Translations under genes and position numbers: made by a program
The notes under the pieces: model-generated
Database searches by the model: none
Told to the model about the DNA's origin: nothing
Seen by the model: only the letters and a program-made list of their open reading frames with translations
Shown here: one piece after another, positions 3,627 through 51,973 of the stretch
Numbering within the stretch: the stretch's first letter is position 1
Layout of the letters: every line of letters starts with the position of its first letter
From: [Archangium] primigenium
Lineage (GTDB): Bacteria > Myxococcota > Myxococcia > Myxococcales > Myxococcaceae
Direction of reading: 5' to 3'
Length of the DNA stretch: 64,000 nt
NCBI RefSeq assembly: GCF_016904885.1
Contig: NZ_JADWYI010000001.1
Location: 7,241,224-7,305,223, forward strand

Positions 3627-4664
3627 GTGAAGCCCCGGCCCGTCTCCAATCCGCCCAACCCCTGGGACACCACCGCCGTGGAGTACCTGGAGGAGATTCC
3701 GCCCACGAAGCTGGAGGTCCACGAGGACCACAGCCGCGAGGTGCTCGGGCGCAACGACAGCCCGGACGTGGGCTTCTCCTGGAGCGTCAACCCGTACCGC
3801 GGCTGCCTGCACGCCTGCGCCTACTGCTACGCGCGCCCCTACCACGAGTACCTCGGCTTCGGCGCGGGCACGGACTTCGAGACGAAGCTCGTCGTCAAGC
3901 CGCGCGCCGCGGAACTCCTGCGCGAGGCCTTCGAGCGCAAGAGCTGGAAGGGCGAGACGGTCGCCTTCAGCGGCATCACCGACTGCTACCAGCCCCTGGA
4001 GGCCAGCCTGCGCCTCACCCGCGCGTGCCTGGAGGTCTGCGCCGAGTACCGCAACCCCGTGGGCATCATCACCAAGGGCCCCCTCATCGAGCGCGACCTG
4101 GACGTGCTCCAGACGCTCGCCGCGCACACCCGGCTCACCGTCTGCATCACCCTGCCCTTCCACGACGCGCACGTGGCGCACGCCATGGAGCCCTCCGTGG
4201 CCTCGCCCCGCCGGCGTCTGCTCACCCTCGAGCGCCTGGCCCGGGCCGGCATCGACGTGGGCGTGGCCGTCTCGCCCATCATCCCCGGCCTCAACGACGA
4301 GGACATGGTGCGTGTGCTCACCGCCGCGCGCGAGGCGGGCGCCACCCGCGCCTTCTCCACCCTGCTGCGCCTGCCCGGCCCCGTGCAGGCCGTCTTCGAG
4401 CAGCGCCTGCGCGAGAAGCTCCCCCTGCGCGCCGAGCGGGTCCTGCACCGCATCCGGGAGACGCGGGGCGGCGAGCTCAACGACTCGCGCTTCCAGGTGC
4501 GCATGCGCGGCGAGGGGCTCTACGCCGAGACGATCCACCGGCTCTTCTCCACCACCGCGCGCCGGCTCGGGCTCAAGACGTCCATGCCCCTGGAGGAGAC
4601 GGACGCGGGCCCGAGCCCCTTTCGCCGCCCCATGAAGGCCGGCACCCAGCTCAGCTTCTTCTGA
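3627..4664 (+). CDS. Radical SAM protein, DNA-repair-photolyase-like (SplB / COG1533 / Rv2578c-like family)
   Basis: There is a CxxxCxxC motif (CLHACAYC) near the N-terminus. A GTG start lies at 3627. The protein is 345 aa with natural composition. Confidence 0.8.
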   Translation: MKPRPVSNPPNPWDTTAVEYLEEIPPTKLEVHEDHSREVLGRNDSPDVGFSWSVNPYRGCLHACAYCYARPYHEYLGFGAGTDFETKLVVKPRAAELLREAFERKSWKGETVAFSGITDCYQPLEASLRLTRACLEVCAEYRNPVGIITKGPLIERDLDVLQTLAAHTRLTVCITLPFHDAHVAHAMEPSVASPRRRLLTLERLARAGIDVGVAVSPIIPGLNDEDMVRVLTAAREAGATRAFSTLLRLPGPVQAVFEQRLREKLPLRAERVLHRIRETRGGELNDSRFQVRMRGEGLYAETIHRLFSTTARRLGLKTSMPLEETDAGPSPFRRPMKAGTQLSFF

Positions 4665-4667
4665 GGC

Positions 4668-5024
4668 TCAGGGCACGTCCGCCGGGAAGACGTGCGCGCC
4701 GTCCTCGCCGAGCGGCAGGGCCACCGCCGACAGCACGGCCGACATGGGCAGCATGCCGTACAGGTGCGGGAAGAGGCCCGGGCGGCGGCCCCCCGCGGAG
4801 GGCTCCCAGCGCAGCGCCTCGCCCAGGGCCGCCGGGTCCACGGCGACGAGCCACAGGTCGCGCTCGCCCGCGCGGTGCTTGCGGGCGCTGCCACGCACCT
4901 GCTCGGCCGTGGACAGGTGCAGGAAGCCGTCGCGCGTGTCGTCGTGGGAGCCGCAGTAGATGCCGACGGTCTGGGCGGCCCGCCAGTCGGCGCCACGCAC
5001 GAGGGTGTAGATGGGGGCGTTCAT
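4668..5024 (-). CDS. DUF952 family protein
   Basis: The sequence IYTLVRGADW...DGFLHLSTAEQV...LWLVAVD...LRWE...LFPHLYGMLP matches the conserved DUF952 pattern. Confidence 0.75.
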   Translation of the reverse strand: MNAPIYTLVRGADWRAAQTVGIYCGSHDDTRDGFLHLSTAEQVRGSARKHRAGERDLWLVAVDPAALGEALRWEPSAGGRRPGLFPHLYGMLPMSAVLSAVALPLGEDGAHVFPADVP

Positions 5025-8982: not shown

Positions 8983-9197
8983 GGGGACGTCTCCTCTGGA
9001 AGAACGGACGGGCCGGAGATTGCGCCGAACGTGTGCGCGGGGGAAGCACGAAGCGTGTGGGAGCCTGCGGCCCACCCGGCCCCTGGGCGTCCGTCCCGGG
9101 GCCAATCCGGGAAAATCCTCGCGCCCCAACGAAGGGCATTGAACGGAGCCCTCCGACCCCCGGGCCATGGACACTGAATGGCGCTACGCTGCGCGCC

Positions 9198-11651
9198 ATG
9201 AGGACGAAGACCTGGTTATTTGGATTCCTGTTGGCCGTGGCCACGCTGTCGGGCTGTACCTGCGGCGGTGAGACCCCGACCCCGGGACAGATCGACAGCG
9301 GCACGGGCGGCAACGCGGGCAACGACGCGGGCACGGGCGGCGACGGCGGCGGCTCCAATGGCGGTGGCGGCTCCGATGGCGGCGCCGACGCGGGCGTGGC
9401 GCTCAAATCGCTCACCCTCTCCCCGCCCAGCCCGATCCTCACCATCTCGGGCAGCACGGCGGCCGTGCAGAAGTTCTCCGTGGTCGGCCTCTACACCGAC
9501 GGGCACACCGAGGACCTGACGTCCCAGGCCTTCTTCCGGGTCGAGGACCCCCGGCTGGGCACCTTCTCCGGCGCCACCTTCACCTCCAGCACCACCGTGG
9601 GCGGCACGAGCAACGTGCACGCCCGGGTGGACACCGCGTCCGTGTCCACCGACGTGCGCGTGCAGCTCAACCAGAAGGCCACGGACTCCAACCCGGGCTC
9701 CGCGAGCGTGCCCGTCAACCCGGACACGCGCTTTGGCGGCACGGTGGATGCCGCGCGCAAGCCCGCGATCGTCTACCCGAGCGACAAGGTCATGGTGCCG
9801 CCGAACCTCGGGCAGCTGGAGGTCCACTTCACCCCCGGCCCCACCACCAACACCCTGTTCGAGCTGCGCTTCATCAACGACATCACCGACGTGCGCGTGT
9901 ACCTGCGCTGCTACCTGCCCTCGGGTGTCACGCTGCCCGCCGGCATCAGCCGGGGCTGCATCTACACGCCGGACGCCACGGTGTGGAAGTTCCTCGCGGA
10001 GAGCAACCGCGGCGGCCAGCTGGTGACGCTCGCGCTGCGCGCCACGGATGACGCGGGCACGTCGGTGGGCGTGGCGGATCCCATCTCGCTGCAGTTCGCC
10101 CGGGCGGAGATCAAGGGCGCGCTCTACTACTGGACCACCCGGCCGGACCAGGTGGGCGTGATGCGCTACGACTTCGCGGGCACCGGGCCTCAGAGCGCCA
10201 CGTCCATGCTCACCAAGAACAACATCAACTCGAGCGGCGTGGGCTGCGTGGGCTGCCACTCGCTGAGCCGCAACGGCAAGAAGATGGTGGCCGCCGTGGA
10301 GCAGGGCAACCTGGAGGATGGCTACAACGAGGGCCAGGTGGCGCTCATCAAGGACCTGGCCAGCTACGCGCCCGACGCGGGCACGGGCAGCGCGGCGGGC
10401 ATCGCCCTGTCCTCGAAGTACCAGAGCGCCTTCGAGTCGTGGAACCCGGACGGCAGCAAGTTCGTGGGCGTCTACAGCGGTGACAACGCCACGCGCTTCG
10501 GCCTGCAGCTGTTCAACGGCGACACCGGCGCGTACGAGAGCCAGATCGACAACACGGGCACCTACGAGCACCCCGCCACCCACCCGGACTGGAGCGCCGA
10601 CGGCAAGTCGATCGCCTACACGGCGGTGGGCTACACGGGCTTCCCCTCGCAGAACCGGCGCACGTTCACGGGCGCCATCCACCTGGTGAAGGCCGAGGGC
10701 GCGGGCTGGAGCGCGCCCCTCACGGTGGCGCCGTCCGTGCCGCTCACCGCCTCCAACGCCTACGCCAAGCACCGCTACTACCCGGCCATCGCCCCGGACA
10801 ACTCGTTCCTCGTGTTCAACGAGTCCACCTGCCCCCAGAACAGCGACACGAGCCAGTACTGCAACGGCGACACGGATCCGTCCGCCACGCTCTGGGCCGC
10901 GAAGCTGGAGGCCAACGCCGCGCTGGTGGAGCTCAAGAACGCCAACAAGCCCGGGCCCACGGATGACAAGGACGGCGCGGGCGCCTTCCTCAAGAACCTC
11001 ACCAACAGCTACCCCAAGTGGAGCCCCTTCGTGACCCAGGGCAACACCGGGGCCCGCAGCCGGCTCATGTGGATGACGTTCTCGTCCTCGCGCAACTACG
11101 GCCTGCGCAAGACGCCCGAGGCCAGCGGCGCGTCCGAGGCCGACAAGAGCACGCTCCTGTGGATGGCCGCGGTGGACCCGGACAAGGTGCTCGCCGGCGA
11201 GGACGGCTCGTACGTGGCCTTCGCCCTGCCCTTCCAGGACATCACCACGTCCAACCACATCGCCCAGTGGGCCCAGTACCTCGTGAGCAACGGCTGCTCC
11301 ACGGAGAACGAGGGCTGCAACTCGAGCGGCTCCACGTGCTGCAACGGTCTGCAGTGCGTGCAGCTCAACCGGGATCCGCCCCTGCCGTGCGACATCGCGG
11401 GCGCGTGCGCGTGCCAGCCCGTGCCCCAGTGCGCCCCCGCGTTCGACAAGTGCTCCACCGTGGCGCCCTGCTGCGATGGCCTGCTCTGCCTGGATGACAC
11501 CACGGGCGGTGACTGCTCGGGCGACAACTGCTCGTGCCGTCCTCAGTGCTCCAACCGGGATCAGCCGTGCGGCAACGGCACCCCCTGCTGCGCGGGCTTC
11601 GTCTGCAACAACCTGCCCACGGGCAAGGTGTGCCGCGTGCAGCTGAACTGA
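9198..11651 (+). CDS. Large lipoprotein with an Ig-like (Big_2-like) domain, TolB/PD40-like beta-propeller repeats, and a C-terminal region carrying three knottin-like cysteine modules
   Basis: The lipobox signal is MRTKTWLFGFLLAVATLSGC. There is a Gly-rich linker, then PD40-like HPDWSADGKSIAY repeats. The last ~125 aa contain about 28 Cys arranged in a repeated C-x6-C-x5-CC-x3-4-C pattern. Confidence 0.8.
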   Translation: MRTKTWLFGFLLAVATLSGCTCGGETPTPGQIDSGTGGNAGNDAGTGGDGGGSNGGGGSDGGADAGVALKSLTLSPPSPILTISGSTAAVQKFSVVGLYTDGHTEDLTSQAFFRVEDPRLGTFSGATFTSSTTVGGTSNVHARVDTASVSTDVRVQLNQKATDSNPGSASVPVNPDTRFGGTVDAARKPAIVYPSDKVMVPPNLGQLEVHFTPGPTTNTLFELRFINDITDVRVYLRCYLPSGVTLPAGISRGCIYTPDATVWKFLAESNRGGQLVTLALRATDDAGTSVGVADPISLQFARAEIKGALYYWTTRPDQVGVMRYDFAGTGPQSATSMLTKNNINSSGVGCVGCHSLSRNGKKMVAAVEQGNLEDGYNEGQVALIKDLASYAPDAGTGSAAGIALSSKYQSAFESWNPDGSKFVGVYSGDNATRFGLQLFNGDTGAYESQIDNTGTYEHPATHPDWSADGKSIAYTAVGYTGFPSQNRRTFTGAIHLVKAEGAGWSAPLTVAPSVPLTASNAYAKHRYYPAIAPDNSFLVFNESTCPQNSDTSQYCNGDTDPSATLWAAKLEANAALVELKNANKPGPTDDKDGAGAFLKNLTNSYPKWSPFVTQGNTGARSRLMWMTFSSSRNYGLRKTPEASGASEADKSTLLWMAAVDPDKVLAGEDGSYVAFALPFQDITTSNHIAQWAQYLVSNGCSTENEGCNSSGSTCCNGLQCVQLNRDPPLPCDIAGACACQPVPQCAPAFDKCSTVAPCCDGLLCLDDTTGGDCSGDNCSCRPQCSNRDQPCGNGTPCCAGFVCNNLPTGKVCRVQLN

Positions 11652-11664
11652 AGCGCCGGGCGGC

Positions 11665-12381
11665 TCAGGGCCGGAGCACGAGGCCCTCGGCCGCCCGTTC
11701 CTCCACGGCGGCGTGGATGTGTGACACGTCCACGCCCGTGGCCGCCGCCACCTGCTCCGGCGTGAGCCCCTCCAGGGCCATCTTGAGCACCAGCAGCGCC
11801 CGGTCGTCCGCCGCCAGGTACATCGTCACCAGCCGCACCGGGTGCCGCCAGAGCAGCGCCACCTCGGCGCCCGGCGCGGGCCGCGCGTCGCCGCCCCGCC
11901 GCAGCCAGGCGCACAGCTGGAAGGGATGCTCCAGCACCGCCAGCGTGGGGTTCACCGTCAGCCGCTCCACGCGCGCCGGGACGGCCTCCCGGGACAGGTA
12001 CACCGCGAAGTCCGTCCACTCGAAGCGCGCCAGCGCGGGCAGGAAGTCCGGGAGCGTGCGCGTCCGGGCCGCGTCCGCGACGAAGTCCGGGAAGCCCGCG
12101 CCCACCTGGTTCATCTCGAAGGGCCGGGCGGGCCGCGACGCCGCGTAGTCGCGCACCAGCTCCGCCCAGGTCTGTGCGTCCACGCTCCCGCGCACCCGTG
12201 GGAAGAGCTTGTCGAGCGTGGCGTCCCCATGGTGGCGCACCATCTGGCCATAGAGCGCCACCCGCGCGCGCGGCGCGTCCCAACCCGGGTGGGCCGCGTA
12301 CAGGCGCTCCAGGGCCTCGGGCGCGGGGTCCGTGAAGTAGGCCTCCATGGTGTCGAAGAAGCCGCGCAGGCCGGGCTTCAT
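11665..12381 (-). CDS. DUF2063 family protein (the MbnC/TglI/BufC-type partner of DUF692 enzymes)
   Basis: The start MKPGLRGFFDTMEAY overlaps the stop of the upstream DUF692 gene by 4 nt (ATGA). The ORF track shows a spurious N-terminal extension to 12522. Confidence 0.8.
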   Translation of the reverse strand: MKPGLRGFFDTMEAYFTDPAPEALERLYAAHPGWDAPRARVALYGQMVRHHGDATLDKLFPRVRGSVDAQTWAELVRDYAASRPARPFEMNQVGAGFPDFVADAARTRTLPDFLPALARFEWTDFAVYLSREAVPARVERLTVNPTLAVLEHPFQLCAWLRRGGDARPAPGAEVALLWRHPVRLVTMYLAADDRALLVLKMALEGLTPEQVAAATGVDVSHIHAAVEERAAEGLVLRP

Positions 12382-13226
12382 CGCGCCCCCACCCGCGCCA
12401 TCAGCGCGCGCGCCCGATCCGCCTCGTCCAGCACCGCGTCCAGCGAGGGGATGTGCGCATCCCACTCGATGAGCGTGGACACGGGGCCCGTGCGCTCGAG
12501 CACGTACTGGTACAGCGACCACACCTCGTCGCAGACGGGCGCGCCGTGCGTGTCGAGCAGCACCTCCGGCAGGCGCTCGTGGCCGGCCAGGTGGAGCTGC
12601 CCCACGCGCTCGAGCGGCAGCGCGTCCACGAAGGCGCGCGGGTCATACCCGTGGTTGCACGCGTTCACGTACACGTTGTTCACGTCCAGCAGCAGGCCAC
12701 AGTCCGCCTGCTCCACCACGTGCCGCAGGAAGTCCGCCTCCGCCAGGGTGCCGCCGGGCATGTGCGCGTAGTAGCTCGGGTTCTCCAGCAGGAAGGGGCG
12801 GCCCACGCGCGCCTGGACTTCCCGCACCCGGGGCACCACGTGCTCCACCGCCTCCTCGCTGAAGGGCAAGGGCAGCAGATCGTAGAGGTACGCGCCGCCC
12901 AACCGCGCGTAGCAGAGGTGATCCGAGAAGAACGGCGCGTCCACGCGCTCCACCAGGGACTGGAGGCCGACGAGGTAGTCCTCGTCCAGGGGATCCGGCC
13001 CGCCGACGTTGAGCGCCACGCCGTGGGGCAGCACGGGCCAGCGCTCGCGGCAGGCGTCCAGGGTGGCCTGGGGTCGGCCGCCCAGGGTGAGGAAGTTCTC
13101 GGGGATGATCTCCACCCAGTCGAGCGCCCGGCGCGTCTCCGGCAGGAGCGTGTAGAACTCGCGGCGCAGGCCGATGCCCACCCCCAGCGGCTTCATCCTC
13201 CAGCGCTGTCCACCACTCACCGGCAT
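12378..13226 (-). CDS. DUF692 / UPF0276 family protein (MbnB/TglH-like multinuclear non-heme iron oxidative enzyme, MNIO)
   Basis: GVGIGLRREF...WVEIIPENF...FFSDHLCY...LLENPSYY...LLDVNNVYVNACNHGYDP...IEWD matches conserved DUF692 blocks. Start candidates are ATG 13226 (GGAGAAAGGG RBS) and ATG 13196. Confidence 0.85.
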   Translation of the reverse strand: MPVSGGQRWRMKPLGVGIGLRREFYTLLPETRRALDWVEIIPENFLTLGGRPQATLDACRERWPVLPHGVALNVGGPDPLDEDYLVGLQSLVERVDAPFFSDHLCYARLGGAYLYDLLPLPFSEEAVEHVVPRVREVQARVGRPFLLENPSYYAHMPGGTLAEADFLRHVVEQADCGLLLDVNNVYVNACNHGYDPRAFVDALPLERVGQLHLAGHERLPEVLLDTHGAPVCDEVWSLYQYVLERTGPVSTLIEWDAHIPSLDAVLDEADRARALMARVGAR

Positions 13227-13294
13227 GCCCTTTCTCCTGGGGAAGGACTCCGGGCGGCGGACCGGGGGGAAGCTGCCCGCCGCCCGAGAGTGGA

Positions 13295-13561
13295 CTACTT
13301 CTTGCCGCCGCAGCCGCTGGAGCCGCAACCGCCGCCGCCACAGCCGTGCTCGGCCGCCTTCTCGGCGGCGGGGGCCGCGGCCCCCTGGGCGGGAGCCGCG
13401 CTGGCGCCGTGCTCCATGGGGGCCATGGGGGCGGCCTGCTCCATCGCGGCGGGGGTGCCCTGCTCCATGGGCGCCGCGGCGGGCTTGGTGGTCGCGCAGC
13501 CGGTGGCCAGCGAGCCGAGGGAGAGGGAGCCAACGAGCGCGGTCAGGGTCTTCACGTTCAT
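13295..13561 (-). CDS. Putative RiPP precursor / small secreted lipoprotein-signal peptide (88 aa) with Met/His-rich repeats and a C-terminal Cys-Gly-rich tail
   Basis: The translation is MNVKTLTALVGSLSLGSLATGC (lipobox)...PMEQGTPAAMEQAAPMAPMEHGASAAP...AEHGCGGGGCGSSGCGGKK. It lies immediately upstream of, and co-directional with, the DUF692-DUF2063 pair (68 nt gap). Confidence 0.6.
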   Translation of the reverse strand: MNVKTLTALVGSLSLGSLATGCATTKPAAAPMEQGTPAAMEQAAPMAPMEHGASAAPAQGAAAPAAEKAAEHGCGGGGCGSSGCGGKK

Positions 13562-13987
13562 GAGACGGGGCCTTTCGGGCAGGGGCGGCAGGGCCTTCGC
13601 GACAGGCGAAGGGTCCGCTCCGGCACTCATACGCCACCTGAACCCCCGGGGTTACAGCCCCCGCTCGACCGGCCCCCGTGGGAGGCGCCCGGCCCGGGTC
13701 ATGCCGCGCGGTGTCAAACCCGGCCCCCGGTAAACCCCTCAGGTAAAATTTGACAGCCCCCTGGCCTCCCGTCCAAGGCGCGTGGGAGGCCCTCTCCCTC
13801 TTGGAGAATCGAGCACTTAGGCATCCATCCCGGGAGGAAGCCGGGAAGACCGGTCGGTAACGTCGGATCCCGGACAGGGGTGATCGCGGCTGAAAACGTT
13901 TATTGCAAATCGGTAAATGCGACCGCACAGTGGACGGAGGCGGAGGGTAACCGGCGGTTGACGCGGGGTCCCGCCCAGGACGCAGCG

Positions 13988-15529
13988 ATGAACGAGAACG
14001 CACTGAACGCCAATGTGGGTCTGAAACTCCGGGGCCTGCGGCTCGCGCGCAACATCAAGCAGACGGACGCGGCCAAGGATCTGGGAGTGTCCCCGGCGTA
14101 CCTGAACCTCATCGAGAAGGGCAAACGGGTCATGCCCTTCCCGCTGTTGTGGAAGGCGCTGCGCTACTTCGACCAGGATCCCGAGCAGTTCATGTCCACC
14201 CTGGGCGAGGGCCGGGTGGACGAGGCGCTCGCGAAGCTGCTGGACGAGCCGCTGCTCAAGAGCCTGGACATCGACTCGGAGTCGCTGCAGAGCCTGTCGG
14301 CGGAGCCGAAGCTCGCGGGCACCGTGGCGGCGCTCTTCAACCTCTACAAGAACACGCGCACGCAGTTGGAGAACGTGCTCGCGCAGCTCAACGTGGAGGA
14401 GAGCGCGCGGATGAACTCGGCGCCGCCGGGCAACTCGGCCGGGCCCCGCTTCGACTACTCGCCCTTCGACGAGGTGAGTGACTTCCTGGAGGCCCACCAC
14501 AACTACTTCCCGGAGCTGGAGGAGCAGGCCGAGTCGATGCGGCGCGACTTCAAGCTCGGGCGGCTGGTGTCCAGCCCCCAGCTGTTGCCGCTGTTGGAGG
14601 AACGCTTCGGCTACCGGATGCGCCTGGAGTCCGCGCCCAGTGGCTCCTCGGTGGTGCGCCGCCTGGACGCGGGGAGTCAGGAGCTCACGCTCTCGCCGGA
14701 CCTGACGGAGCAGCCGCTCAAGTTCCAGCTCGCCGCCTCCATTGGCCTGCTCATGCTGGACAAGGAGAAGCTGGTGGAGCGCATCGTCGGCGCGGCGCGC
14801 ACGCGGCACGCCGAGACGCTGCGGCTCATCAAGGTGCACCTGGCCAACTACTTCGCCGGCGCGCTGATGCTGCCCTACGGGGACTTCTTCAAGGAAGTGG
14901 AGCGCACGCGCTACGACGTGGAGCTCCTGTCCAACCTCTTCGGCACCACGTACGAGACGGTGGCCCACCGGCTGTGCAACCTGTCGGACCCCAAGCGCCG
15001 GGGCCTGCCCTTCCACTTCCTGCGCTCGGACATCGCGGGCAACATCTCCAAGCGCTACAGCGGCACGGGCATCAAGTTCGCCTCGGGCGGCGGCTCGTGC
15101 GGCAAGTGGGCCGTGCACCTGGCCTTCCTCAACCCCTCGCAGCTCACCCGGCAGTACTCGATGATGCCGGACGGCACCTCGTACTTCTGCTTCGCCAAGG
15201 TGCAGCTGCAGCCCATCGAGGGCTCCATCGTGCGCGGCTCGGCCTACTCCATCGGCCTGGGCACCCACGCGGAGAACGCCAAGTACCTGGCGTATGGCCT
15301 GCCCACCACGGACCTGCGCAAGGACGCGGTCCCCAGCGGCATCTCCTGCCGCTTCTGCGAGCGCACCGACTGCAACCAGCGCGCGGCCGCCAGCTACCGC
15401 TTCGCCTTCTCCATCGACGAGTACACCAAGAAGGACTGCTTCTTCTCGCCCCTGCTCGTGCACGAGGCCGGGCGGGCGGAATCGCTGGACAAGACGCTGC
15501 GGCGCCGTAACAAGGGCGAGGAGAACTGA
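13988..15529 (+). CDS. XRE-family HTH transcriptional regulator with a C-terminal DUF2083-like domain (ScfR/PrpR/RamB-like short-chain fatty acyl-CoA regulator family)
   Basis: There is an N-terminal HTH (LRGLRLARNIKQTDAAKDLGVSPAYLNLIEKGKR), then a long conserved domain ending in Cys motifs (CGKW..., CRFCERTDC). It is divergent from the precursor/DUF692 operon. Confidence 0.8.
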   Translation: MNENALNANVGLKLRGLRLARNIKQTDAAKDLGVSPAYLNLIEKGKRVMPFPLLWKALRYFDQDPEQFMSTLGEGRVDEALAKLLDEPLLKSLDIDSESLQSLSAEPKLAGTVAALFNLYKNTRTQLENVLAQLNVEESARMNSAPPGNSAGPRFDYSPFDEVSDFLEAHHNYFPELEEQAESMRRDFKLGRLVSSPQLLPLLEERFGYRMRLESAPSGSSVVRRLDAGSQELTLSPDLTEQPLKFQLAASIGLLMLDKEKLVERIVGAARTRHAETLRLIKVHLANYFAGALMLPYGDFFKEVERTRYDVELLSNLFGTTYETVAHRLCNLSDPKRRGLPFHFLRSDIAGNISKRYSGTGIKFASGGGSCGKWAVHLAFLNPSQLTRQYSMMPDGTSYFCFAKVQLQPIEGSIVRGSAYSIGLGTHAENAKYLAYGLPTTDLRKDAVPSGISCRFCERTDCNQRAAASYRFAFSIDEYTKKDCFFSPLLVHEAGRAESLDKTLRRRNKGEEN

Positions 15530-45719: not shown

Positions 45720-45814
45720 CCAGAAGAGGCCCCGAGGCTAACAGGGCCCGAGGAGGAGCGGATTGCCCTCCCGACGAGCGCCGTGGTACCTCCGCGTCAC
45801 AGCCCGGGCGGAAA

Positions 45815-45833
45815 GATTCACGCGTCGTGAATC
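45815..45833 (+). promoter_or_regulatory. Perfect 8-bp inverted repeat GATTCACG-cgt-CGTGAATC, 32 nt upstream of the first giant gene's start codon. It is a candidate operator or regulator-binding site
   Basis: The palindrome is visible in the sequence. The surrounding ~45 nt (GCGGAAAGWT...CCGCG.GA.GG) are conserved upstream of the second paralog at 51921-51965, where the palindrome is degenerate (TCCAC-acatc-GTGGA at 51929-51943). Confidence 0.35.
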
Positions 45834-45864
45834 CGCGCGACGGGTGGCCCAAAGGGGGGAAGCG

Positions 45865-48800
45865 ATGCGGTGGCTGCGTTACGGGGTGGTGCTGCTGGCG
45901 GTGGTGGCGTGCACGGGGCGTGAGTCAACGCCCGCCGCGTCCCCCCCTCCGTCCGAGCCTCCGACGACCGGGTCCTCCCGCGCCGGGTTGGCGGGAGTGA
46001 GCGCCCGGCTCTTGAAGGACATCAACGAGACCACCTACGCGGCGAACCCGCAGGGGCTGGCGAACGTCAACGGCACGGTCTTCTTCAGGGCCACGGACGG
46101 CTTGAGCGGGGTCGAACTGTGGAAGAGCGACGGCACCGCCGCCGGCACCGTCCTCGTCAAGGACATCCATCCAGGTCCGGGCGACTCGACTCCGGAAGAA
46201 CTGACGAACGTCAACGGCACCCTCTTCTTCCGCGCCACGGACAACAGCACGGCGCGCCCGGTGCTGTGGAAGAGCGACGGCACCGCCGCCGGCACCGTCC
46301 CCGTCATGAACATGGTGGCGGGCCCGCAGACCTCGAGCCCCTACCTCCTGACGGCTGTCGGCGACACGCTCTATTTCACTTTCTATAACAGCGCGACGGG
46401 CACGGAGCTGTGGAAGAGTGACGGCACCGCCAAAGGCACCGTCCTCGTCAAGGACATCTCCCCGGGCTCGGCCAGCGCGAGGCCCGAGTACCTGACGAAC
46501 GTCAATGGCACGCTCTTCTTCGTGGCCGAGGGCAGCTTCTTCAATGACCGGGAGCTGTGGAAGAGCGACGGCACCGCCGCCGGCACCGTCCTCGTCAAGG
46601 ACATCCGCGAGGGCTCGGCCAGCTCGGCTCCCAGTCGACTGACGAACGTCAATGGCACGCTCTTCTTCGTGGCCAATCTCGGCGGTCGTAACAATCAGTT
46701 GTGGAAGAGCGATGGCACCACCGCCGGCACGGTCCTCGTCAAGGAACCGAATTCCTTGTTTCCCAGCAACCTGACGAACGTCAACGGCACGCTCTATTTC
46801 TCGGCCTCCGCAGGATACGCTCGCCAGGACTTGTGGAAGAGCGACGGCACCACCGTCGGCACCGTTCTCGTCAAGACCATCGATACGGTCTGGCCTGGCG
46901 TGGACCTCGCGAATCTGACGAACGTCAACGGCACACTCTACTTCACCACGGACGGCGAGAACGGCGATGAGCTGTGGAAGAGCGACGGCACCGCCGCCGG
47001 CACCGTCCTCTTCAAGGACATCCATCCAGGCTGGCCCTCCTCCCGCCCACGGGAGTTGAGGAGCATCAACAACACGCTCTATTTCACAGCCCAGAGCCCC
47101 TCCGAGTGGGGGTTGTGGAAGAGCGACGGAACCCCCACCGGCACCGTCCTCGTCAAGGCGCTCCAGCGCCAGTCGAGCCCGAGCGACACCGAACTCGTGG
47201 CCCTGACGGACGTCAACGGCACGCCTTACTTCAGCGCCAATGACGGTCTGTATGGCCATGAGTTGTGGAAGAGCGACGGCACGGCCACTGGCACGGTGCT
47301 GACCCGGGACATCAACACGAAGACGCAGGGTTCGAATCCCTACCTCCTGACGAACGTCAACGGCACGCTCTACTTCTCGGCCACGGATGGTGTGAATGGC
47401 TCCGAGTTGTGGAAGAGCGACGGCACCGCCGCTGGCACCCGCCTCGTCAAGGACATCAACCCCAGCTCGGGCGGCAATTCGAATCTCCACGCCTTGACGA
47501 ACGTCAACGGCACACTCTACTTCGCGGCCACGGATGGTGTGAATGGCTCCGAGTTGTGGAAGAGCGACGGCACCGCCGCTGGCACCCGCCTCGTCAAGGA
47601 TATCAACCCTGGCTCGAGCAACGCGTTTCCCGGCAAACTAACGAACGTCAACGGTACGCTGTATTTCACGGCCTCCAACAGCGAGAGCAGCTACCAAGAC
47701 AGATTGTGGAAGAGCGATGGCACCACCGCCGGCACTGTGCTTGTCCAGGGCACGGCCACCGGCTCGGGGGTCTTGTCGATCACGGGCTCCCTGACGAACG
47801 TCAACGGCACGCTCTACCTCTCGGCCACCAACGGCACGAGTGGCGAGGAATTGTGGAAGAGCGATGGCACCGCCGCTGGCACCGTCCTCGTCAAGGACCT
47901 CTTCCCTGGCTCGAGCGGCTCGGGTCCTGGAAATCTGACGAACGTCAACGGCACGCTCTACTTCTCGGCCACCAACGGCACGAGTGGCATGGAGTTGTGG
48001 AAGAGCGATGGCACCGCCGCCGGCACCGTCCTCGTCCAGGACCTCTTCCCCGGCTCGAGCGGCTCGGGTCCTGGAAATCTGACGAACGTCAACGGCACGC
48101 TCTACTTCTCGGCCACCAACGGCACGAGTGGCGTGGAGTTGTGGAAGAGCGATGGCACGGCCGAAGGCACCGTCCTCGTCCAGGACCTCTTCCCCGGCTC
48201 GAGCGGCTCGAATCCCCAAAACCTGACGAACGTCAACGGCACGCTCTACTTCTCGGCCACCAACGGCACGAGTGGTGTGGAGTTGTGGAAGAGCGATGGC
48301 ACGGCCGAAGGCACCGTCCTCGTCAAGGACCTCTTCCCCGGCTCGAGCGGCTCGAATCCTCGAGACATGGCGAACGTCAACGGCACGCTCTACTTCTCGG
48401 CCGACGACGGCACGACCGGCCGGGAGTTGTGGCGGAGCGATGGTACGACCGGGGGCACCGTCCTCGTCCAGGACATCTCCCCGGGCTCGATCGGCTCGGG
48501 GCCCCAGTACCTCACCCAGGCCGGGGCCTCGGTGTTCTTCACCGCCCGTACGCCGGCCCATGACACAGAGCTGTGGGTGCTGAGCGGCGACCTGCTGCCG
48601 CCCACCGTGACGTGCCCCGCCGCGCAGGACGCGCTGGCCACGAGCCCGGCCGGCGCGAATGTCACCTACCCGCCCGCCACCGCCACGGATGATCAGACGG
48701 ACTCGCCCCGGCTCGCCTACTCGCTGGCCTCCGGCGCCCTCTTCCCGTTGGGCGACACACGCGTCACCGTGACGGCCACGGACGACGCGGGCAACACGGC

Positions 48801-51800
48801 CCAGTGCGCCTTCACCGTCAGCGTCCTGCCGCCCCCGCCCACGGTCACCGCGCCTGTCGACGGGACGTCTTCGCTTCCACCTGTCCTCGTGTCCGGCACG
48901 GCCCTGGCGGGCGCCGAGGTGCACGTCCTGGAGGGCACCACCGTCCTGAAAATCCTCGCCACGAGCACGGACGGTACTTTCAGTGGCGGGATGGCGCCGG
49001 AGTCACGTGTCTACTCCCTGCGCTTCGTCCAGATCCTCAACGGCTTCACCTCCACGCCCACGGGCCCGCGCACCGTGTTCGTCCGCCCGCCGCCGCCGAG
49101 CCTCTCCCATCCCTCGGACGGACTCGTCACGACCCACCCCGACGTCCCCCTGCTCGTCCGCGGTCTGCCCGATGCCAGCCTCACCGTGCGCGAGGGCCCA
49201 ACGGTCCTCGCGACGCTTGCGCTCGACGAGGCGGGAAACTTCGCCGGTTCGCTCGCCCTGGACCCTGGCGTGCACGTGCTGCGCTTCACCCAGACCACGT
49301 CCGGTGGCACCAGTGACGAGGTCGTGCGCACCGTCACCCGCCAGCCGCCGGCCCCTGTCCTGACCCGCCCCACCTCGGGCGCTTCGCTCGTGGGCTCCAC
49401 CGTGCGCGTGGAGGGCACGGGCGCTCCGGGTGCCACGGCCCGGGTGCTCGAGGACGGCGCTGTCGTGGGCAGCTTCTCCGTGACGAGTGGCGGCACCTTC
49501 GCGGGTGACATCCCCCTGGCCTATGGCCCGCACCAGTTGACGGCGGTGCAGGTGGCTGGGGGCCAGACGAGCCCCGCCTCCGCGCCCGTCTCCTTCGAGG
49601 TGCGACCCGCTGCCCCCAGTGTGTCCTCGCCCGCCGATGGCACCACCTTCGACGGTCCCACGGTGGCCGTCTCGGGCTCGGGCGTGTTGGGCGCCCAGGT
49701 GGAGGTGCGGGAGGCGGGCACGGTGCTCGCCTCCTTCGCGGTGGACGCCTCCGGCGGCTTCACGGGCGAGGTGGAGTTGGCGCCCGGCACGCACAGCCTC
49801 TCCTTCGTGCAGAAGGCGGGTGGCACCACCAGTGACGTCACGGGCCCCCGGAATATCTCCGTGCGGCCCGCCGCCCCCGTGCTCTCCGCTCCCGCGGCCA
49901 ACGCCCGCGTGCCAGGGCCCCAGGTGGTGCTGCAGGGCACCGCCCTGGCCGGAGCGCGTGTCCTCGCCGAGGAGGCCGGCGTGTCCCTGGGCGGCACCTC
50001 GGCGGAGGCCTCCGGGGCCTTCCAGCTGAGCGTCACGCTGGCCTACGGGCCGCACAGCCTCTCGCTCCAGCAGGAAGCCGGCGGTGTCACCGGTCCGGCG
50101 CGCACCGCCGCCTTCACCGTCATTCCCGCCCCACCCGTCCTCTCCCAGCCCCAGGAGGGCGCCACCGTGGGCAGCAGCGTCGAGGTGCGCGGCACCGCCC
50201 TGCCCTTGGCGCACGTCACCCTGCGCGATGGCACCCAGGTGCTCGCCCAGCTCGACGCGGACGCCGACGGCGCCTTCCTGCTCGACGTCACCCTCGCCTA
50301 TGGCCCCCACACCCTCACCGCCGTGCAGCGTGTGCAGGGCGAGGACAGTGAGGCCTCCGCGCCCGCGCACCTCACCTCCGTCTTCAACCGCGCTCCCGTG
50401 GCCGACGCCCAGGAGTTGTCAGTCGAGGAAGACGGGCGCCTGGCCGTGACGCTCACCGCCAGCGACGCCGACGACGACGCCCTCACCTTCAGCGTCCAGA
50501 CGCCTCCGGCCCACGGCACCCTGGAGGGCACCCCGCCTGCCCTCACCTACGTGCCCGCGCCCGACTTCCACGGCGCCGACCGCTTCACCTTCGCCGTCTC
50601 CGACGGCCAGGCGGAGGCCACCGCCACCGTTCGCCTCACCGTCACCCCCGTCAATGACGCCCCCGTGGCCTACGCCCTTTCGGCCACCACGGGCGAGGGC
50701 CAGCCCGTCTCCCTCACCCTGTCCGGCAGCGACATCGATGGCGACGCGCTCTCCTATGCGGTGGTGACGGGCCCGGCGCACGGAAGCCTTCAGGGCACCC
50801 CGCCCGCGCTGACGTACACCCCCGCCCCGGGCTTCGCGGGCATGGACGCCTTCACCTTCCGCGTGAACGACGGTCAGCTCGACTCCCCTCCGGCCTCTGT
50901 ATCCATTCGCATCCTGGCCACCACCCTGTCCGTGTCCGTGAGCGACCTGTCTCCGCTGGAGGGCAGCCCCGTCGCCTTCTCGGCGGCTCTGGCCGATGCC
51001 CGCGCCACACCCTCCTTCGCCTGGGACTTCGGGGACGGCACCACGTCCCGCGAGCCCGCTCCGCGCCATGCCTTCCCCGACGACGGCCCGTACACCGTGC
51101 GCGTGAGCGCCACGGACGCCGACGGCACGCGCCAGGCGTCCGTCCTCCTCACCGTGCGCAACGCTCCGCCCGTGGTGACAGCCCTCACGCTGCCCGAGGG
51201 CGTCGTCGAAGCGCAGGAGGTGGAGTTGTCGGCCATGGCCGAGGACCCCGCTGGCAGCGCCGACACCCTGACGTACGCCTGGGACTTCGGCGATGGCTCG
51301 CCCGTGGTCCAGGGCACCACCGTGCGCCATGCCTTCCGGGACGACGGGACCTTCACCGTGGTGCTCACCGTGCGTGACGAGGACGGCGGTGAAACCCAGC
51401 AACAGGCCACGCTCTTCGTCGCCAACGTGCCTCCGACCGCCACCCCTCCCGAGCGCCAGTTCGTCCGCGTGGGAGAGAGCCTGAGCCTCCAGCTGGCCGC
51501 GAGCGATGTCGCGGGCGAGGCAGACCCGCTCACCTGGACGAAGCTCAGCGGGCCCGGCGCGGTGACGCCCGAAGGGCTCTTCACCTGGGTGCCCTCAACG
51601 CAGGAAGTGGGCGAGGCCTCCATTGAGCTCCAGGTGTCCGATGACGACGGGGGCAGCGCCGAGGTGACGCTGGTGGTGGAGGTGTCAGGCCCGAACGCCG
51701 AGCCGCCCGCGGGTTGTGGCTGTGGGGCCAGTGGTGAAGCCTCGGGGCTGTTCGCCGTCCTGCTCGGACTCGGTGCCCTCACCAGGCGCCGTGCGCCCCG

Positions 51801-51828: not shown

Positions 51829-51973
51829 CAGGCCCCGCGCCCTCGTCGCGTCCCGGGCGGGAGCAGGCGGTTTGCGCTCCCGACGGGCCGCATGGTACCC
51901 CCCCCTCGACACAACCGAAGCGGAAAGTTCCACACATCGTGGACTTCCGCGAGCGGTATCCCGAGGGGGGACC

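What the first reader, a model, noticed from the sequence alone, without database searches (positions are those of the whole stretch)
11665..13561. Compact precursor-DUF692(MNIO)-DUF2063 operon: a candidate uncharacterized RiPP metallophore system
Three co-directional minus-strand genes sit within 1.9 kb. The first is an 88-aa signal-peptide-bearing peptide (13561-13295). The second is a DUF692 enzyme (13226-12378), the MbnB/TglH/BufB-type multinuclear non-heme iron oxidase family that modifies Cys residues in methanobactins, 3-thiaglutamate, bufferins and oxazolins. The third is its obligate DUF2063 partner (12381-11665). Its start is fused to the DUF692 stop by an ATGA overlap, which fits a 1:1 heterodimer. 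The established families use the same gene order with a cysteine-containing precursor. This precursor does not look like the DUF2282 or BUF_6/12Cys classes, so it may be a new substrate class.
Basis: partly seen in the sequence, partly recalled or inferred. Interest (0 to 1): 0.85.

Follow-up and report, generated by a model that had tools for sequence, protein, structure and literature searches.

The report
Lipid-anchored copper-binding peptide gene cluster
This three-gene operon of the myxobacterium Archangium primigenium encodes a small lipoprotein-type peptide and the iron-enzyme pair that most likely converts its three C-terminal cysteines into copper-binding thiooxazole rings. It is an untested but already catalogued member of the oxazolin/bufferin ("captophorin") family, not a new class.

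Summary
Three minus-strand genes sit at exactly the stated coordinates: an 88-aa peptide, a DUF692/MNIO enzyme (PF05114, E 2e-104) and a DUF2063 partner (PF09836, E 1e-12). The last two genes overlap by ATGA.

The reading as a RiPP metallophore operon holds, but the "new substrate class" idea does not.
- The peptide has a lipoprotein signal (lipobox LATGC) and ends in three tandem 5-mers, EHGCG-GGGCG-SSGCG. This is the 5-residue, Cys-Gly architecture of the EGKCG repeats of oxazolin, gonophorin and fontiphorin.
- I recovered 56 distinct homologous peptides from Myxococcus, Corallococcus, Pyxidicoccus, Hyalangium, Cystobacter and Archangium. Wherever the downstream sequence was readable, bar one orphan locus, an orthologous MNIO and DUF2063 gene follow. 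Some peptides carry true EGKCG.
- Close relatives are listed as "oxazolin-like" predicted RiPP-lipoproteins in the supplement of a 2025/2026 paper. That paper also made the lipidated Neisseria analogue experimentally.

The most likely mechanism is cytoplasmic conversion of Cys74, Cys79 and Cys84 to 5-thiooxazoles, then Sec export and lipidation of Cys22, giving a membrane-anchored copper chelator.

Local peculiarities are a Met/His-rich linker that replaces internal Cys motifs, no DoxX gene, and a conserved hairpin between the precursor and enzyme genes.

Verdict: new member of a known kind, low-to-moderate interest.

The parts
13295..13561 (-). Precursor peptide gene (88 aa): MNVKTLTALVGSLSLGSLATGC...EHGCGGGGCGSSGCGGKK
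   Evidence: ORF and sequence; GC3 0.96. It is 100% identical to a hypothetical protein of Archangium primigenium. 56 distinct homologues lie directly upstream of orthologous MNIO genes.
13496..13561 (-). Lipoprotein signal peptide, residues 1-22, ending in lipobox L-A-T-G-C22 (Cys22 codon 13496-13498)
   Evidence: L18, A19, T20, G21 and C22 are invariant in alignment A1. All 56 family peptides satisfy a PROSITE-PS51257-type lipobox rule, written from memory. The same family is called an SPII-type lipoprotein by SignalP 6 in PMC13056109/PMC12636315.
13409..13471 (-). Met/His-rich linker (residues 31-51: PMEQGTPAAMEQAAPMAPMEH), replacing the internal Cys motifs of most relatives
   Evidence: Four Met and one His lie in this segment. 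Only the Melittangium peptide and metagenome locus L008 share this Met-rich character. The other family members have 0-1 Met and carry 1-7 extra Cys motifs in this region.
13307..13351 (-). Core: three tandem 5-mers E71-H-G-C74-G / G-G-G-C79-G / S-S-G-C84-G, the predicted modification sites, followed by the tail G-K-K
   Evidence: C74, G75, G78 and C79 are invariant in A1. Every one of the 56 family peptides ends in a run of 2-3 Cys spaced by exactly 5 residues, 3-8 residues from the C-terminus. Residue +1 after Cys is Gly in 140 of 214 cases, and residue -3 is Glu in 122 of 214.
13247..13291 (-). GC-rich stem-loop (12 + 4 bp) between the precursor and MNIO genes. A candidate transcription attenuator or mRNA-stabilising hairpin.
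   Evidence: Minimum free energy -39 kcal/mol for 13222-13300, z = -2.5 against shuffles. The arms GGGCGGYGGG...CCYGCCGCCC recur in 51 of 61 orthologous intergenic regions, usually followed by 5-8 T in 14 nt (only 3 T in the window).
12378..13226 (-). MNIO (DUF692) enzyme gene, 282 aa, BufB/HvfB-type
   Evidence: PF05114 E 2e-104. NF050167 BufB 325.4 bits, above its cut-off of 310; NF003818 HvfB 290.6 bits, below its cut-off of 360. Best solved relative is 3BWW, E 5e-61. R21, R22, H68, H103, E148, D181, N184, H212, H216, D225, H227, E254 and D256 are invariant with the characterised FonB and NgoB.
11665..12381 (-). DUF2063 partner gene (PME1 type, 238 aa); its start overlaps the MNIO stop by ATGA
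   Evidence: PF09836 E 1e-12. HvfC 53.5 bits (below cut-off 142) and the SbtM N-terminal region 67 bits. AlphaFold2 model with pLDDT 91.7, whose best PDB match is 3DEE (the N. gonorrhoeae PME1; TM 0.64/0.75, rmsd 3.2 A), followed by the TglHI holoenzyme entries (8HI7_A, 8HCI_A) and the MbnABC complex (7FC0_C).
13562..13879 (.). Divergent intergenic region between the precursor gene and an ScfR/RamB-type regulator gene (13880-15529, +). Presumed promoter region, not resolved.
   Evidence: No sigma-70-like promoter was found and no Rfam family. The regulator and the TPR gene are syntenic with the operon across Myxococcia, but in most genera an extra gene separates them from it. A regulatory link is therefore not shown.

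Best explanation
The locus is a three-gene biosynthetic operon for a lipid-anchored, oxazolin-like 'captophorin', that is, a RiPP-lipoprotein hybrid or DAG-RiPP.

Inferred mechanism, from characterised homologues:
1. The 88-aa precursor is bound in the cytoplasm by the DUF2063/PME1 partner.
2. The multinuclear non-heme iron oxidase uses O2 to convert Cys74, Cys79 and Cys84 of the C-terminal EHGCG-GGGCG-SSGCG repeats into 5-thiooxazoles. Each conversion costs -4 Da, -12 Da in total.
3. The lipobox Cys22 is left untouched.
4. The modified peptide is exported by Sec, diacylglycerylated on Cys22 by Lgt, cleaved by signal peptidase II and N-acylated by Lnt.
5. The product is a 67-residue membrane-anchored peptide. 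Its thiooxazoles, probably helped by His72 and the Met/His-rich linker, chelate copper in the cell envelope and buffer copper stress.

A conserved hairpin after the precursor gene probably makes precursor mRNA more abundant than enzyme mRNA.

Shown here: gene structure, family assignments, conservation of catalytic residues, the PME1 fold, the lipobox, the 5-mer core architecture, and strict co-occurrence across Myxococcia.

Inferred only: the chemistry, the lipidation, copper binding and the role of the hairpin.
For: Enzyme and partner:
- The HMM matches are significant.
- The MNIO shares every residue that is invariant with FonB and NgoB, two enzymes shown to install 5-thiooxazoles. These include the Arg-Arg pair (FonB R15/R16), which reads a Glu at repeat position 1, and the catalytic Asp (FonB D249 = D256).
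- The partner model's best structural match is 3DEE, the PME1 of N. gonorrhoeae.

Precursor-enzyme link:
- 56 distinct lipobox peptides lie immediately upstream of orthologous MNIO genes (72-98% identical). The DUF2063 gene follows wherever the contig continues. This holds in at least 9 genera and in two different chromosomal contexts.
- The peptide evolves fast (45-94% identity) while the lipobox and the terminal Cys-x4-Cys run stay invariant.

Link to validated systems:
- Family members contain EGKCG or AEGSCG, the same motifs as in HvfA and NgoA. They nearly reach the HvfA-domain cut-off.
- The family profile ranks NgoA and HvfA well above all shuffles, and NedA and FonA only marginally above the best shuffle.

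Precedent for the whole pathway:
- Lipo-NedABC (lipobox plus three EGKCG) was produced triacylated and carrying -4 Da per motif (PMC13056109).
- Members of this family are listed there as 'oxazolin-like' RiPP-lipoproteins.

Copper role of homologues: PMC11626156, PMC11252979, PMC13097082.
Against: - There is no experiment on any myxobacterial member.
- The window peptide itself gives no hit to the HvfA-family models. It has Gly, not Lys, before each Cys.
- The selectivity residue next to the catalytic Asp is Ala257 rather than Phe (FonB F250). Which and how many Cys are processed is therefore uncertain.
- FonBC handled non-Lys 5-mers only partially in vitro.
- No copper-related gene, DoxX, sigma/anti-sigma pair or CopRS lies nearby.
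- One homologous peptide (L005) has no MNIO next to it.
- The hairpin in this window lacks a good T-tract.
Confidence: 0.7

Rival explanations
1. The operon and precursor are as described, but the physiological role is not copper buffering. Alternatives are another metal, protection against oxidants or hypochlorite, or a role in outer-membrane vesicles or predation.
For: No copper-homeostasis or metal-regulatory gene is adjacent. The neighbours are housekeeping-type genes: an ScfR-like regulator, TPR, TauE, peptidases and an aminotransferase. The title of a paper retrieved (PMC7907618, not read) links an H. influenzae ECF sigma factor, RpoE2, to hypochlorite stress; from memory only, the hvf operon belongs to its regulon. 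The role of DoxX, and the function of these peptides outside a few species, is unknown.
Against: Every characterised product of this MNIO-PME1 clade (bufferins, oxazolin, fontiphorin, MmrA) binds copper or protects against it. The sub-branch that contains the window peptide replaced internal Cys motifs with Met/His-rich stretches, a composition typical of Cu(I) ligands in periplasmic copper proteins (the Cu(I) link is my inference from general knowledge).
Confidence: 0.2
2. The MNIO performs different or incomplete chemistry on this Gly-Cys-Gly core. Examples are modification of only one or two Cys, or oxazolone-thioamide instead of 5-thiooxazole.
For: The core lacks the Lys preceding Cys. The residue after the catalytic Asp is Ala rather than Phe (Lys-Cys enzymes) or Asp (Cys-Lys enzymes). 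FonBC modified non-canonical 5-mers such as NVCGG only once. The enzyme is only 42-46% identical to NgoB and FonB. Oxazolone-thioamide and 5-thiooxazole have the same mass, and their assignment was disputed.
Against: All residues invariant with FonB and NgoB, which include the predicted metal ligands and the catalytic Asp, are conserved. The enzyme passes the BufB equivalog cut-off. The Cys-Gly dyad preferred by FonB is present at all three sites. The published re-assignment unifies MNIO-PME1 products as 5-thiooxazoles.
Confidence: 0.15
3. The small ORF is an ordinary Cys-containing lipoprotein that merely neighbours the enzyme genes, and the MNIO acts on some other substrate.
For: One homologous peptide (locus L005) is followed by a kinase-like gene rather than an MNIO. 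The window peptide has no curated family match.
Against: The peptide-MNIO-DUF2063 order is conserved in all other loci, including a second paralogous copy in a different genomic context next to T6SS genes. The invariant features are exactly a secretion signal and a Cys 5-mer core like that of validated substrates. In this enzyme clade the substrate gene precedes the MNIO gene.
Confidence: 0.03

Closest known systems
Lipo-NedABC of Neisseria dentiae (a DAG-RiPP, lipidated oxazolin-type peptide; PMC13056109)
   Same: It has a lipoprotein signal with a lipobox Cys, a short unstructured linker and three C-terminal xxxCG 5-mers. It has an MNIO plus DUF2063 partner in the order A-B-C. The pathway is cytoplasmic modification followed by Lgt/LspA/Lnt processing. 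Myxobacterial relatives of the window peptide are listed in the same paper's table as 'oxazolin-like'.
   Different: NedA uses canonical EGKCG; the window peptide uses EHGCG/GGGCG/SSGCG with no Lys. The window peptide also has a Met/His-rich linker. NedABC was demonstrated experimentally, while nothing here has been.
Oxazolin (HvfABC), gonophorin (NgoABC) and fontiphorin (FonABC): Lys-Cys group captophorins
   Same: The MNIO carries the conserved Arg-Arg pair, the predicted metal ligands and the catalytic Asp. The partner has the PME1 fold (3DEE). The core is a 5-residue repeat with Cys at position 4 and Gly at position 5, and Glu at position 1 of the first repeat. Like fon, the cluster has no DoxX gene.
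   Different: The signal is SPII (lipoprotein) rather than SPI. The HvfA, HvfB and HvfC equivalog models are not reached. Ala replaces Phe at the FonB-250 selectivity site. There are only 3 Cys, against 6-13 in those peptides.
Bufferins Buf1 (DUF2282) and Buf2 (BUF_6/12Cys), BufABC(D)
   Same: The enzyme passes NCBIfam's BufB equivalog model, and its orthologues are named 'MNIO family bufferin maturase'. The gene order is the same. The predicted product is periplasmic and copper-chelating. About 16% of Buf2 peptides also have lipoprotein signals.
   Different: The precursor has no DUF2282 or Buf2-type Cys pattern. There is no DoxX, sigma factor or NrsF gene.
'CxxxxC' precursor family (Antoine et al. 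2025) and 'Cluster X' lipoprotein-signal CxxxxC peptides (PMC13056109)
   Same: Both have a signal peptide plus a conserved Cys-x4-Cys motif next to an MNIO and DUF2063.
   Different: The published CxxxxC family often includes DoxX and a Lactamase_B_2 gene, which are absent here. I could not obtain its HMM or its sequences. Myxobacterial relatives are filed under Cluster III 'oxazolin-like', not Cluster X.
Methanobactin MbnABC
   Same: It is an MNIO acting on Cys of a ribosomal peptide to make a copper ligand.
   Different: The relationship is distant (MbnB model 50 bits against a cut-off of 325). The partner is MbnC, and the precursor uses a leader peptide rather than a Sec signal. The product is a secreted chalkophore with oxazolone-thioamide groups.

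Membership tests
MNIO superfamily (PF05114, MbnB/TglH/ChrH) | Full-length match to the family HMM above the gathering score | tested here: met
   348.8 bits against a cut-off of 25; residues 15-276 cover profile positions 1-262 of 263. 3BWW at E 5e-61.
MNIO superfamily (PF05114, MbnB/TglH/ChrH) | Conserved His/Asp/Glu iron ligands and the catalytic Asp | tested here: met
   H68, H103, E148, D181, N184, H212, H216, D225, H227, E254 and D256 are invariant with FonB and NgoB in alignment A2. D256 aligns with the FonB D249 catalytic base. Assigning individual residues to iron sites rests on prior knowledge and was not tested.
Captophorin / MNIO-PME1 biosynthetic cluster (Gadgil et al. 2026) | PME1 partner: a DUF2063 domain plus an RRE-like domain, encoded next to the MNIO | tested here: met
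   PF09836 E 1e-12. ATGA overlap with the MNIO gene. AF2 model with pLDDT 91.7 whose top PDB match is 3DEE (TM 0.64/0.75).
Captophorin / MNIO-PME1 biosynthetic cluster (Gadgil et al. 2026) | Cys-rich precursor encoded immediately upstream of the MNIO | tested here: met
   The 88-aa peptide has 3 core Cys. The arrangement is conserved for 56 distinct peptides.
Captophorin / MNIO-PME1 biosynthetic cluster (Gadgil et al. 2026) | Product contains 5-thiooxazoles and binds copper | not testable with these tools
   This needs co-expression, MS, UV (~305 nm), NMR and metal-binding assays.
Oxazolin / HvfA family (Buf_EGKCG; NCBIfam NF050137, NF050188) | Match to the HvfA-family HMMs | tested here: not met
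   The window peptide gives no hit even at E <= 10. Relatives reach 18.1-18.3 bits against a cut-off of 19.5; NgoA scores 47.9. A profile of the myxobacterial family does rank NgoA (32.9) and HvfA (18.8) above 800 shuffles (best 10.2).
Oxazolin / HvfA family (Buf_EGKCG; NCBIfam NF050137, NF050188) | Tandem 5-residue repeats with Cys at position 4 and Gly at position 5 | tested here: met
   EHGCG-GGGCG-SSGCG. A terminal run of Cys spaced by 5 occurs in 56 of 56 family members.
Oxazolin / HvfA family (Buf_EGKCG; NCBIfam NF050137, NF050188) | Lys immediately before the modified Cys (Lys-Cys group) | tested here: not met
   Gly precedes all three Cys in the window peptide. Lys occurs at this position in only 17 of 214 Cys contexts in the family.
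Oxazolin / HvfA family (Buf_EGKCG; NCBIfam NF050137, NF050188) | Enzyme and partner reach the HvfB / HvfC equivalog cut-offs | tested here: not met
   HvfB 290.6 against a cut-off of 360; HvfC 53.5 against a cut-off of 142.
DAG-RiPP / RiPP-lipoprotein hybrids, Cluster III 'oxazolin-like' (PMC13056109 / PMC12636315) | SPII lipoprotein signal with a lipobox Cys on a precursor adjacent to an MNIO | tested here: met
   LATGC is invariant. 56 of 56 peptides pass a PS51257-type rule. SignalP itself was not available.
DAG-RiPP / RiPP-lipoprotein hybrids, Cluster III 'oxazolin-like' (PMC13056109 / PMC12636315) | Sequence belongs to the published cluster | tested here: inconclusive
   The exact window peptide is not in the printed table. 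Its relatives are, labelled 'III, Oxazolin-like': matches to the peptides of Pyxidicoccus fallax (L034), Vitiosangium (P0006) and Cystobacter (L009), plus an ...AAEHGCGAGGCGASGCGGKK peptide. The table appears to list only representative sequences, and the text is OCR.
DAG-RiPP / RiPP-lipoprotein hybrids, Cluster III 'oxazolin-like' (PMC13056109 / PMC12636315) | Actual diacylglyceryl and N-acyl modification of the N-terminal Cys | not testable with these tools
   This needs membrane-fraction MS, as was done for lipo-NedABC.
Bufferins (Buf1 DUF2282; Buf2 BUF_6/12Cys) | Precursor matches DUF2282 or has the 6/12-Cys pattern | tested here: not met
   The peptide has no Pfam family. It has only 3 core Cys, in a different pattern.
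Bufferins (Buf1 DUF2282; Buf2 BUF_6/12Cys) | Enzyme reaches the BufB equivalog model | tested here: met
   NF050167 at 325.4 bits, above the cut-off of 310.
'CxxxxC' family of Antoine et al. 2025 | Match to the authors' CxxxxC HMM; cluster often includes DoxX and Lactamase_B_2 | not testable with these tools
   Neither the HMM nor the alignment is held. The motif C-x4-C is present, but there is no DoxX or Lactamase_B_2 gene here.

The most novel reading that the evidence does not exclude
The Archangium primigenium / Melittangium sub-branch may be a functionally distinct, hybrid copper device. It would combine a lipid-anchored peptide, a Met/His-rich Cu(I) 'Mets-motif' linker and a Lys-free Gly-Cys-Gly triple thiooxazole head, made by an MNIO with an altered selectivity pocket (Ala in place of Phe or Asp). 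It might be displayed on the outer membrane or on vesicles of a predatory bacterium, where it could handle or deliver copper during predation rather than merely buffer it.
Probability: 0.07. Interest if true: 0.6.

Novelty: new member of a known kind. Interest (0 to 1): 0.25.

Why it matters
The locus adds little new biology, and the main value of this check is the correction itself. The locus looked like a new RiPP substrate class. It is instead the myxobacterial, lipoprotein-type branch of the very large MNIO-PME1 (captophorin) family, and that branch is already catalogued as 'oxazolin-like' DAG-RiPPs.

Some modest points of interest remain.
- The three-gene system was recovered with the same gene order in every Myxococcia genus sampled (Myxococcus, Corallococcus, Pyxidicoccus, Hyalangium, Cystobacter, Archangium and others). 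It is therefore probably part of their core envelope physiology, yet it has never been studied in these model social predators.
- The natural variation of the core (EGKCG, EGSCG, EHGCG, GGGCG, with Ala or Gln at the enzyme's selectivity position) is a ready-made data set on MNIO substrate specificity.
- The replacement of Cys motifs by Met/His-rich stretches in this lineage is indirect support for a copper role.

Tried and rejected
- Curated models for the peptide. Pfam and NCBIfam gave nothing for the window peptide, apart from weak similarity of its signal peptide to entericidin B.
- Sequence search of the partner against PDB found no hit. The fold comparison was needed instead.
- Profile search of the peptide family in 1.84 billion representatives gave only 28 hits at E <= 0.001, the top hits sampled being the same Myxococcia family. 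The search did not bridge to HvfA-type peptides; one weak hit (P0156, E 1.4e-4) carries DGKCGEGKCG but lacks a lipobox Cys.
- I looked for copper or metal genes, DoxX, and sigma/anti-sigma or CopRS genes around the operon. None was found.
- I considered the convergent 820-aa Cys-rich lipoprotein and the divergent ScfR-like regulator as parts of the system. The 820-aa gene is linked only in Archangium-group genera. In most genera the regulator is separated from the operon by an extra M61-like peptidase gene. Both are absent from the paralogous copy, so I treat them as synteny rather than components.
- No sigma-70 promoter, Rfam family or tRNA was found near the locus.
- Literature search found no experiment on the myxobacterial DUF692/DUF2063 genes. 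I could not map the M. xanthus DK1622 orthologue (ABF86002.1) to a locus tag to check published copper transcriptomes.
- A model of the MNIO-partner-peptide complex could not be made with the single-chain predictor.
- The supplement of PMC13056109 is not held. The preprint's supplement was used instead.


Full report
**Observation**

- Peptide: 13561-13295, 88 aa.
- DUF692/MNIO: 13226-12378, 282 aa, with an AGGAG Shine-Dalgarno 7 nt before the ATG.
- DUF2063: 12381-11665, 238 aa. Its ATG overlaps the MNIO TGA as ATGA.

In this 70.5% GC sequence many spurious ORFs overlap the region. The three named frames have third-position GC of 0.95-0.96, against 0.52-0.85 for the alternatives, so they are the real genes. 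The peptide is 100% identical to a hypothetical protein of Archangium primigenium.

**Family assignments**

- The 282-aa protein matches PF05114 end to end (348.8 bits, E 2e-104).
- It passes NCBIfam's 'MNIO family bufferin maturase' equivalog (325.4 against 310) but not the HvfB one (290.6 against 360).
- Its best solved relative is 3BWW (E 5e-61).
- I aligned it with FonB and NgoB, two enzymes shown to make 5-thiooxazoles (sequences from the supplement of PMC13097082). All residues invariant across the alignment, which include the predicted metal ligands, are conserved. So are the catalytic Asp (D256 = FonB D249) and the Arg-Arg pair (R21/R22 = FonB R15/R16). The neighbouring selectivity residue is Ala257 instead of Phe.
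- The 238-aa protein matches PF09836 (E 1e-12). It matches HvfC (53.5 bits) and the N-terminal region of SbtM (67 bits), both far below their cut-offs.
- Sequence search against PDB found nothing for the partner. An AlphaFold2 model built on 34 orthologues (pLDDT 91.7) has 3DEE as its best structural match (TM 0.64/0.75). 3DEE is the N. gonorrhoeae PME1 partner. The TglHI holoenzyme entries (8HI7_A, 8HCI_A) and the MbnABC complex (7FC0_C) follow.
- The enzyme pair is therefore a bona fide MNIO-PME1 pair.

**The peptide**

It has no curated family, but its anatomy is clear.
- Residues 1-22 form a lipoprotein signal peptide ending in the lipobox L-A-T-G-C22.
- Residues 31-51 are Met/His-rich (PMEQGTPAAMEQAAPMAPMEH).
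- The C-terminus is three tandem 5-mers, E-H-G-C74-G, G-G-G-C79-G and S-S-G-C84-G, followed by G-K-K.

Homologues found by protein search are few and come from myxobacteria. A profile search of 1.84 billion representatives gave only 28 hits at E <= 0.001.

Many copies of this small gene are simply not annotated. I scanned GTDB genomes with the MNIO and read the upstream DNA. Pooled with the loci fetched earlier, this gave 56 distinct peptides from Myxococcus, Corallococcus, Pyxidicoccus, Hyalangium, Cystobacter, Archangium, Vitiosangium, Citreicoccus and related MAGs.
- All 56 meet a lipobox rule.
- All 56 end in a run of two or three Cys spaced by exactly five residues, 3-8 residues from the C-terminus.
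- The residue after Cys is Gly in 140 of 214 cases. The residue three before it is Glu in 122 of 214. The commonest contexts are EGSCG, AGSCG, EHGCG, EHKCG and EGKCG.
- An MNIO that is 72-98% identical follows every peptide except the L005 orphan. A DUF2063 protein that is 43-98% identical follows it wherever the contig continues.
- Some genomes carry a second copy in a different neighbourhood, next to T6SS genes. It has 6-10 Cys arranged in 18-residue repeats.
- Exceptions are one metagenomic peptide followed by a kinase-like gene instead of an MNIO (L005) and one frameshifted copy (L060).

**Relation to known systems**

The 5-residue, Cys-Gly repeat is the architecture of the EGKCG motif of oxazolin (HvfA), gonophorin (NgoA) and fontiphorin (FonA). 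NgoA also contains AEGSCG, the commonest myxobacterial motif.
- Myxobacterial family members score 18.1-18.3 bits on the HvfA-family domain model NF050137 (cut-off 19.5). The window peptide scores nothing.
- A profile of the 56 peptides scores NgoA 32.9, HvfA 18.8, NedA 11.3 and FonA 11.1 bits. The best of 800 composition-matched shuffles scores 10.2.

The literature already covers this ground.
- Antoine et al. 2025 describe Buf_EGKCG/oxazolin and 'CxxxxC' precursor families, plus hundreds of unclassified signal-peptide Cys peptides next to MNIOs of the same mega-cluster.
- Gadgil et al. 2026 unify more than 24,000 MNIO-PME1 loci as 'captophorins' that carry 5-thiooxazoles. They revise the oxazolin structure and count 33 Myxococcales clusters.
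- The PNAS 2026 paper on DAG-RiPPs shows that a lipobox-bearing EGKCG peptide (NedA) is both modified (-4 Da per motif) and triacylated.
- Its preprint supplement prints myxobacterial MNVK...LATGC... peptides as Cluster III 'Oxazolin-like' RiPP-lipoproteins. These include close relatives of the window peptide.

The 'new substrate class' suggestion is therefore not supported. The locus is an untested member of a catalogued branch.

**Mechanism**

*Shown.* Gene order, translational coupling, family membership of both proteins, conserved catalytic residues, the PME1 fold, the lipobox, the 5-mer core, and strict co-inheritance of the peptide with the enzymes.

*Inferred from characterised homologues.*
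- The DUF2063 partner binds the precursor.
- The MNIO oxidatively converts Cys74, Cys79 and Cys84 to 5-thiooxazoles in the cytoplasm. No signal peptide was noted on the enzyme, which aligns from its N-terminus with the cytoplasmic enzymes FonB and NgoB.
- Cys22 escapes modification. The peptide is exported by Sec and processed by Lgt, LspA and Lnt into a 67-residue lipopeptide.
- That lipopeptide chelates copper in the envelope.

Glu71 at repeat position 1, together with the conserved Arg21/Arg22, fits the published recognition model. The loss of the Lys before Cys goes with the loss of Phe at the FonB-250 position. This co-variation is suggestive but untested.

Within the family, the window peptide, the Melittangium peptide and the L008 peptide form a sub-branch. 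It has lost the internal Cys motifs and gained four Met. I read this as exchange of one kind of Cu(I) ligand for another. That is inference only, and with about 67 residues the Met enrichment is only modestly significant.

**Regulatory detail**

A 12 + 4 bp GC-rich hairpin lies between the precursor and MNIO genes (13247-13291; -39 kcal/mol, z -2.5). The same arms recur in 51 of 61 orthologous intergenic regions, usually followed by a T-rich tract. This is the classical arrangement for producing more precursor than enzyme transcript. In the window the T-tract is poor, so attenuation here is less certain.

**Surroundings**

Nothing nearby points to metal homeostasis. The neighbours are:
- a divergent ScfR/RamB-like regulator and a TPR protein;
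- TauE;
- M17 and M13 peptidases;
- an aminotransferase and a chalcone-isomerase-like protein;
- a convergent 820-aa Cys-rich lipoprotein.

The regulator and TPR gene are syntenic across Myxococcia. In most genera an M61-like metallopeptidase gene separates them from the operon, and this gene is missing from the window. The 820-aa gene is linked only in the Archangium group. None of these accompanies the paralogous copy, so I do not count them as parts of the system. There is no DoxX gene, as is also the case in the fon cluster.

**Verdict**

This is a new, uncharacterised member of a known and recently catalogued kind: lipoprotein-type, oxazolin-like captophorins. Its minor local peculiarities are the Gly-Cys-Gly core, the Met/His linker and Ala at the selectivity site. 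Interest is low to moderate.

Noticed in passing
L063, L071, L072, L075, L076 (upstream of the MNIO match, about 4300-5000 in each locus): In Polyangia, the MNIO genes closest to the myxococcal clade (55-59% identity) are preceded by peptides or proteins with an N-terminal signal and an early Cys (lipobox-like in L071, L072 and L075, not checked formally), carrying tandem Cys-Pro repeats (TAGCP..., DGGCPAK...). In four loci these are fused to a ~150-aa domain ending in CxxCH (for example CVGCHAGAG), with no Pfam match. The Cys context differs from EGKCG, so this may be a distinct substrate type.
   Followed up: partly
window 9189-11651 (+): An 820-aa predicted lipoprotein with a weak PD40/TolB-propeller signal and three C-terminal Cys-rich knot-like repeats. 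It is convergent with the DUF2063 gene and is conserved beside the operon only in Archangium, Vitiosangium and Melittangium.
   Followed up: partly
L002 4460-5989; L046 2901-4580: In most Archangium and Myxococcus loci, a ~510-560-aa protein with an HELLH motif sits directly upstream of the precursor gene on the same strand. It has a weak Peptidase_M61 match, and in L002 an N-terminal sequence that looks like a lipoprotein signal. In L002 it ends 12 nt before the precursor gene. It is absent from the window, Melittangium and Cystobacter fuscus loci.
   Followed up: partly
L003/L004 6001-7862; L040; L043: Archangium violaceum, A. minus and Cystobacter fuscus carry a second copy of the peptide-MNIO-DUF2063 triad. 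In A. violaceum it lies next to type VI secretion genes; the neighbourhood of the other two was not examined. Its precursors have 6-10 Cys in 18-residue repeats, and there is no intergenic hairpin.
   Followed up: partly
L005 4823-5107: A 94-aa member of the peptide family (6 core Cys) lies in a metagenome contig with no MNIO gene downstream; a Ser/Thr-kinase-like ORF follows instead. It could be modified in trans, or be a relic.
   Followed up: partly
L060 about 4640-4900: The precursor gene of Cystobacter fuscus strain NCWS is frameshifted after codon 12. This is either an assembly error or a pseudogene. Strain Cbf 10 (L009) has it intact.
   Followed up: no
window 13247-13291 (-): A conserved GC-rich hairpin lies between the precursor and enzyme genes, with arms GGGCGGYGGG / CCYGCCGCCC in 51 of 61 orthologous loci. 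It is usually followed by a T-rich tract, but not in this window.
   Followed up: yes
window 45763-51828 (+) and 51716-57928 (+): Two tandem, paralogous ~2000-aa surface-type proteins with the same domain order: HYR, cadherin-like, Big_9 and PKD.
   Followed up: no
window 11665-12381 (-): Residues 60-238 of the DUF2063 partner match the first 172 positions of NCBIfam's SbtM model ('thio(seleno)oxazole modification radical SAM maturase', 67 bits). This suggests that the radical-SAM enzyme carries a PME1-like peptide-binding domain at its N-terminus.
   Followed up: no
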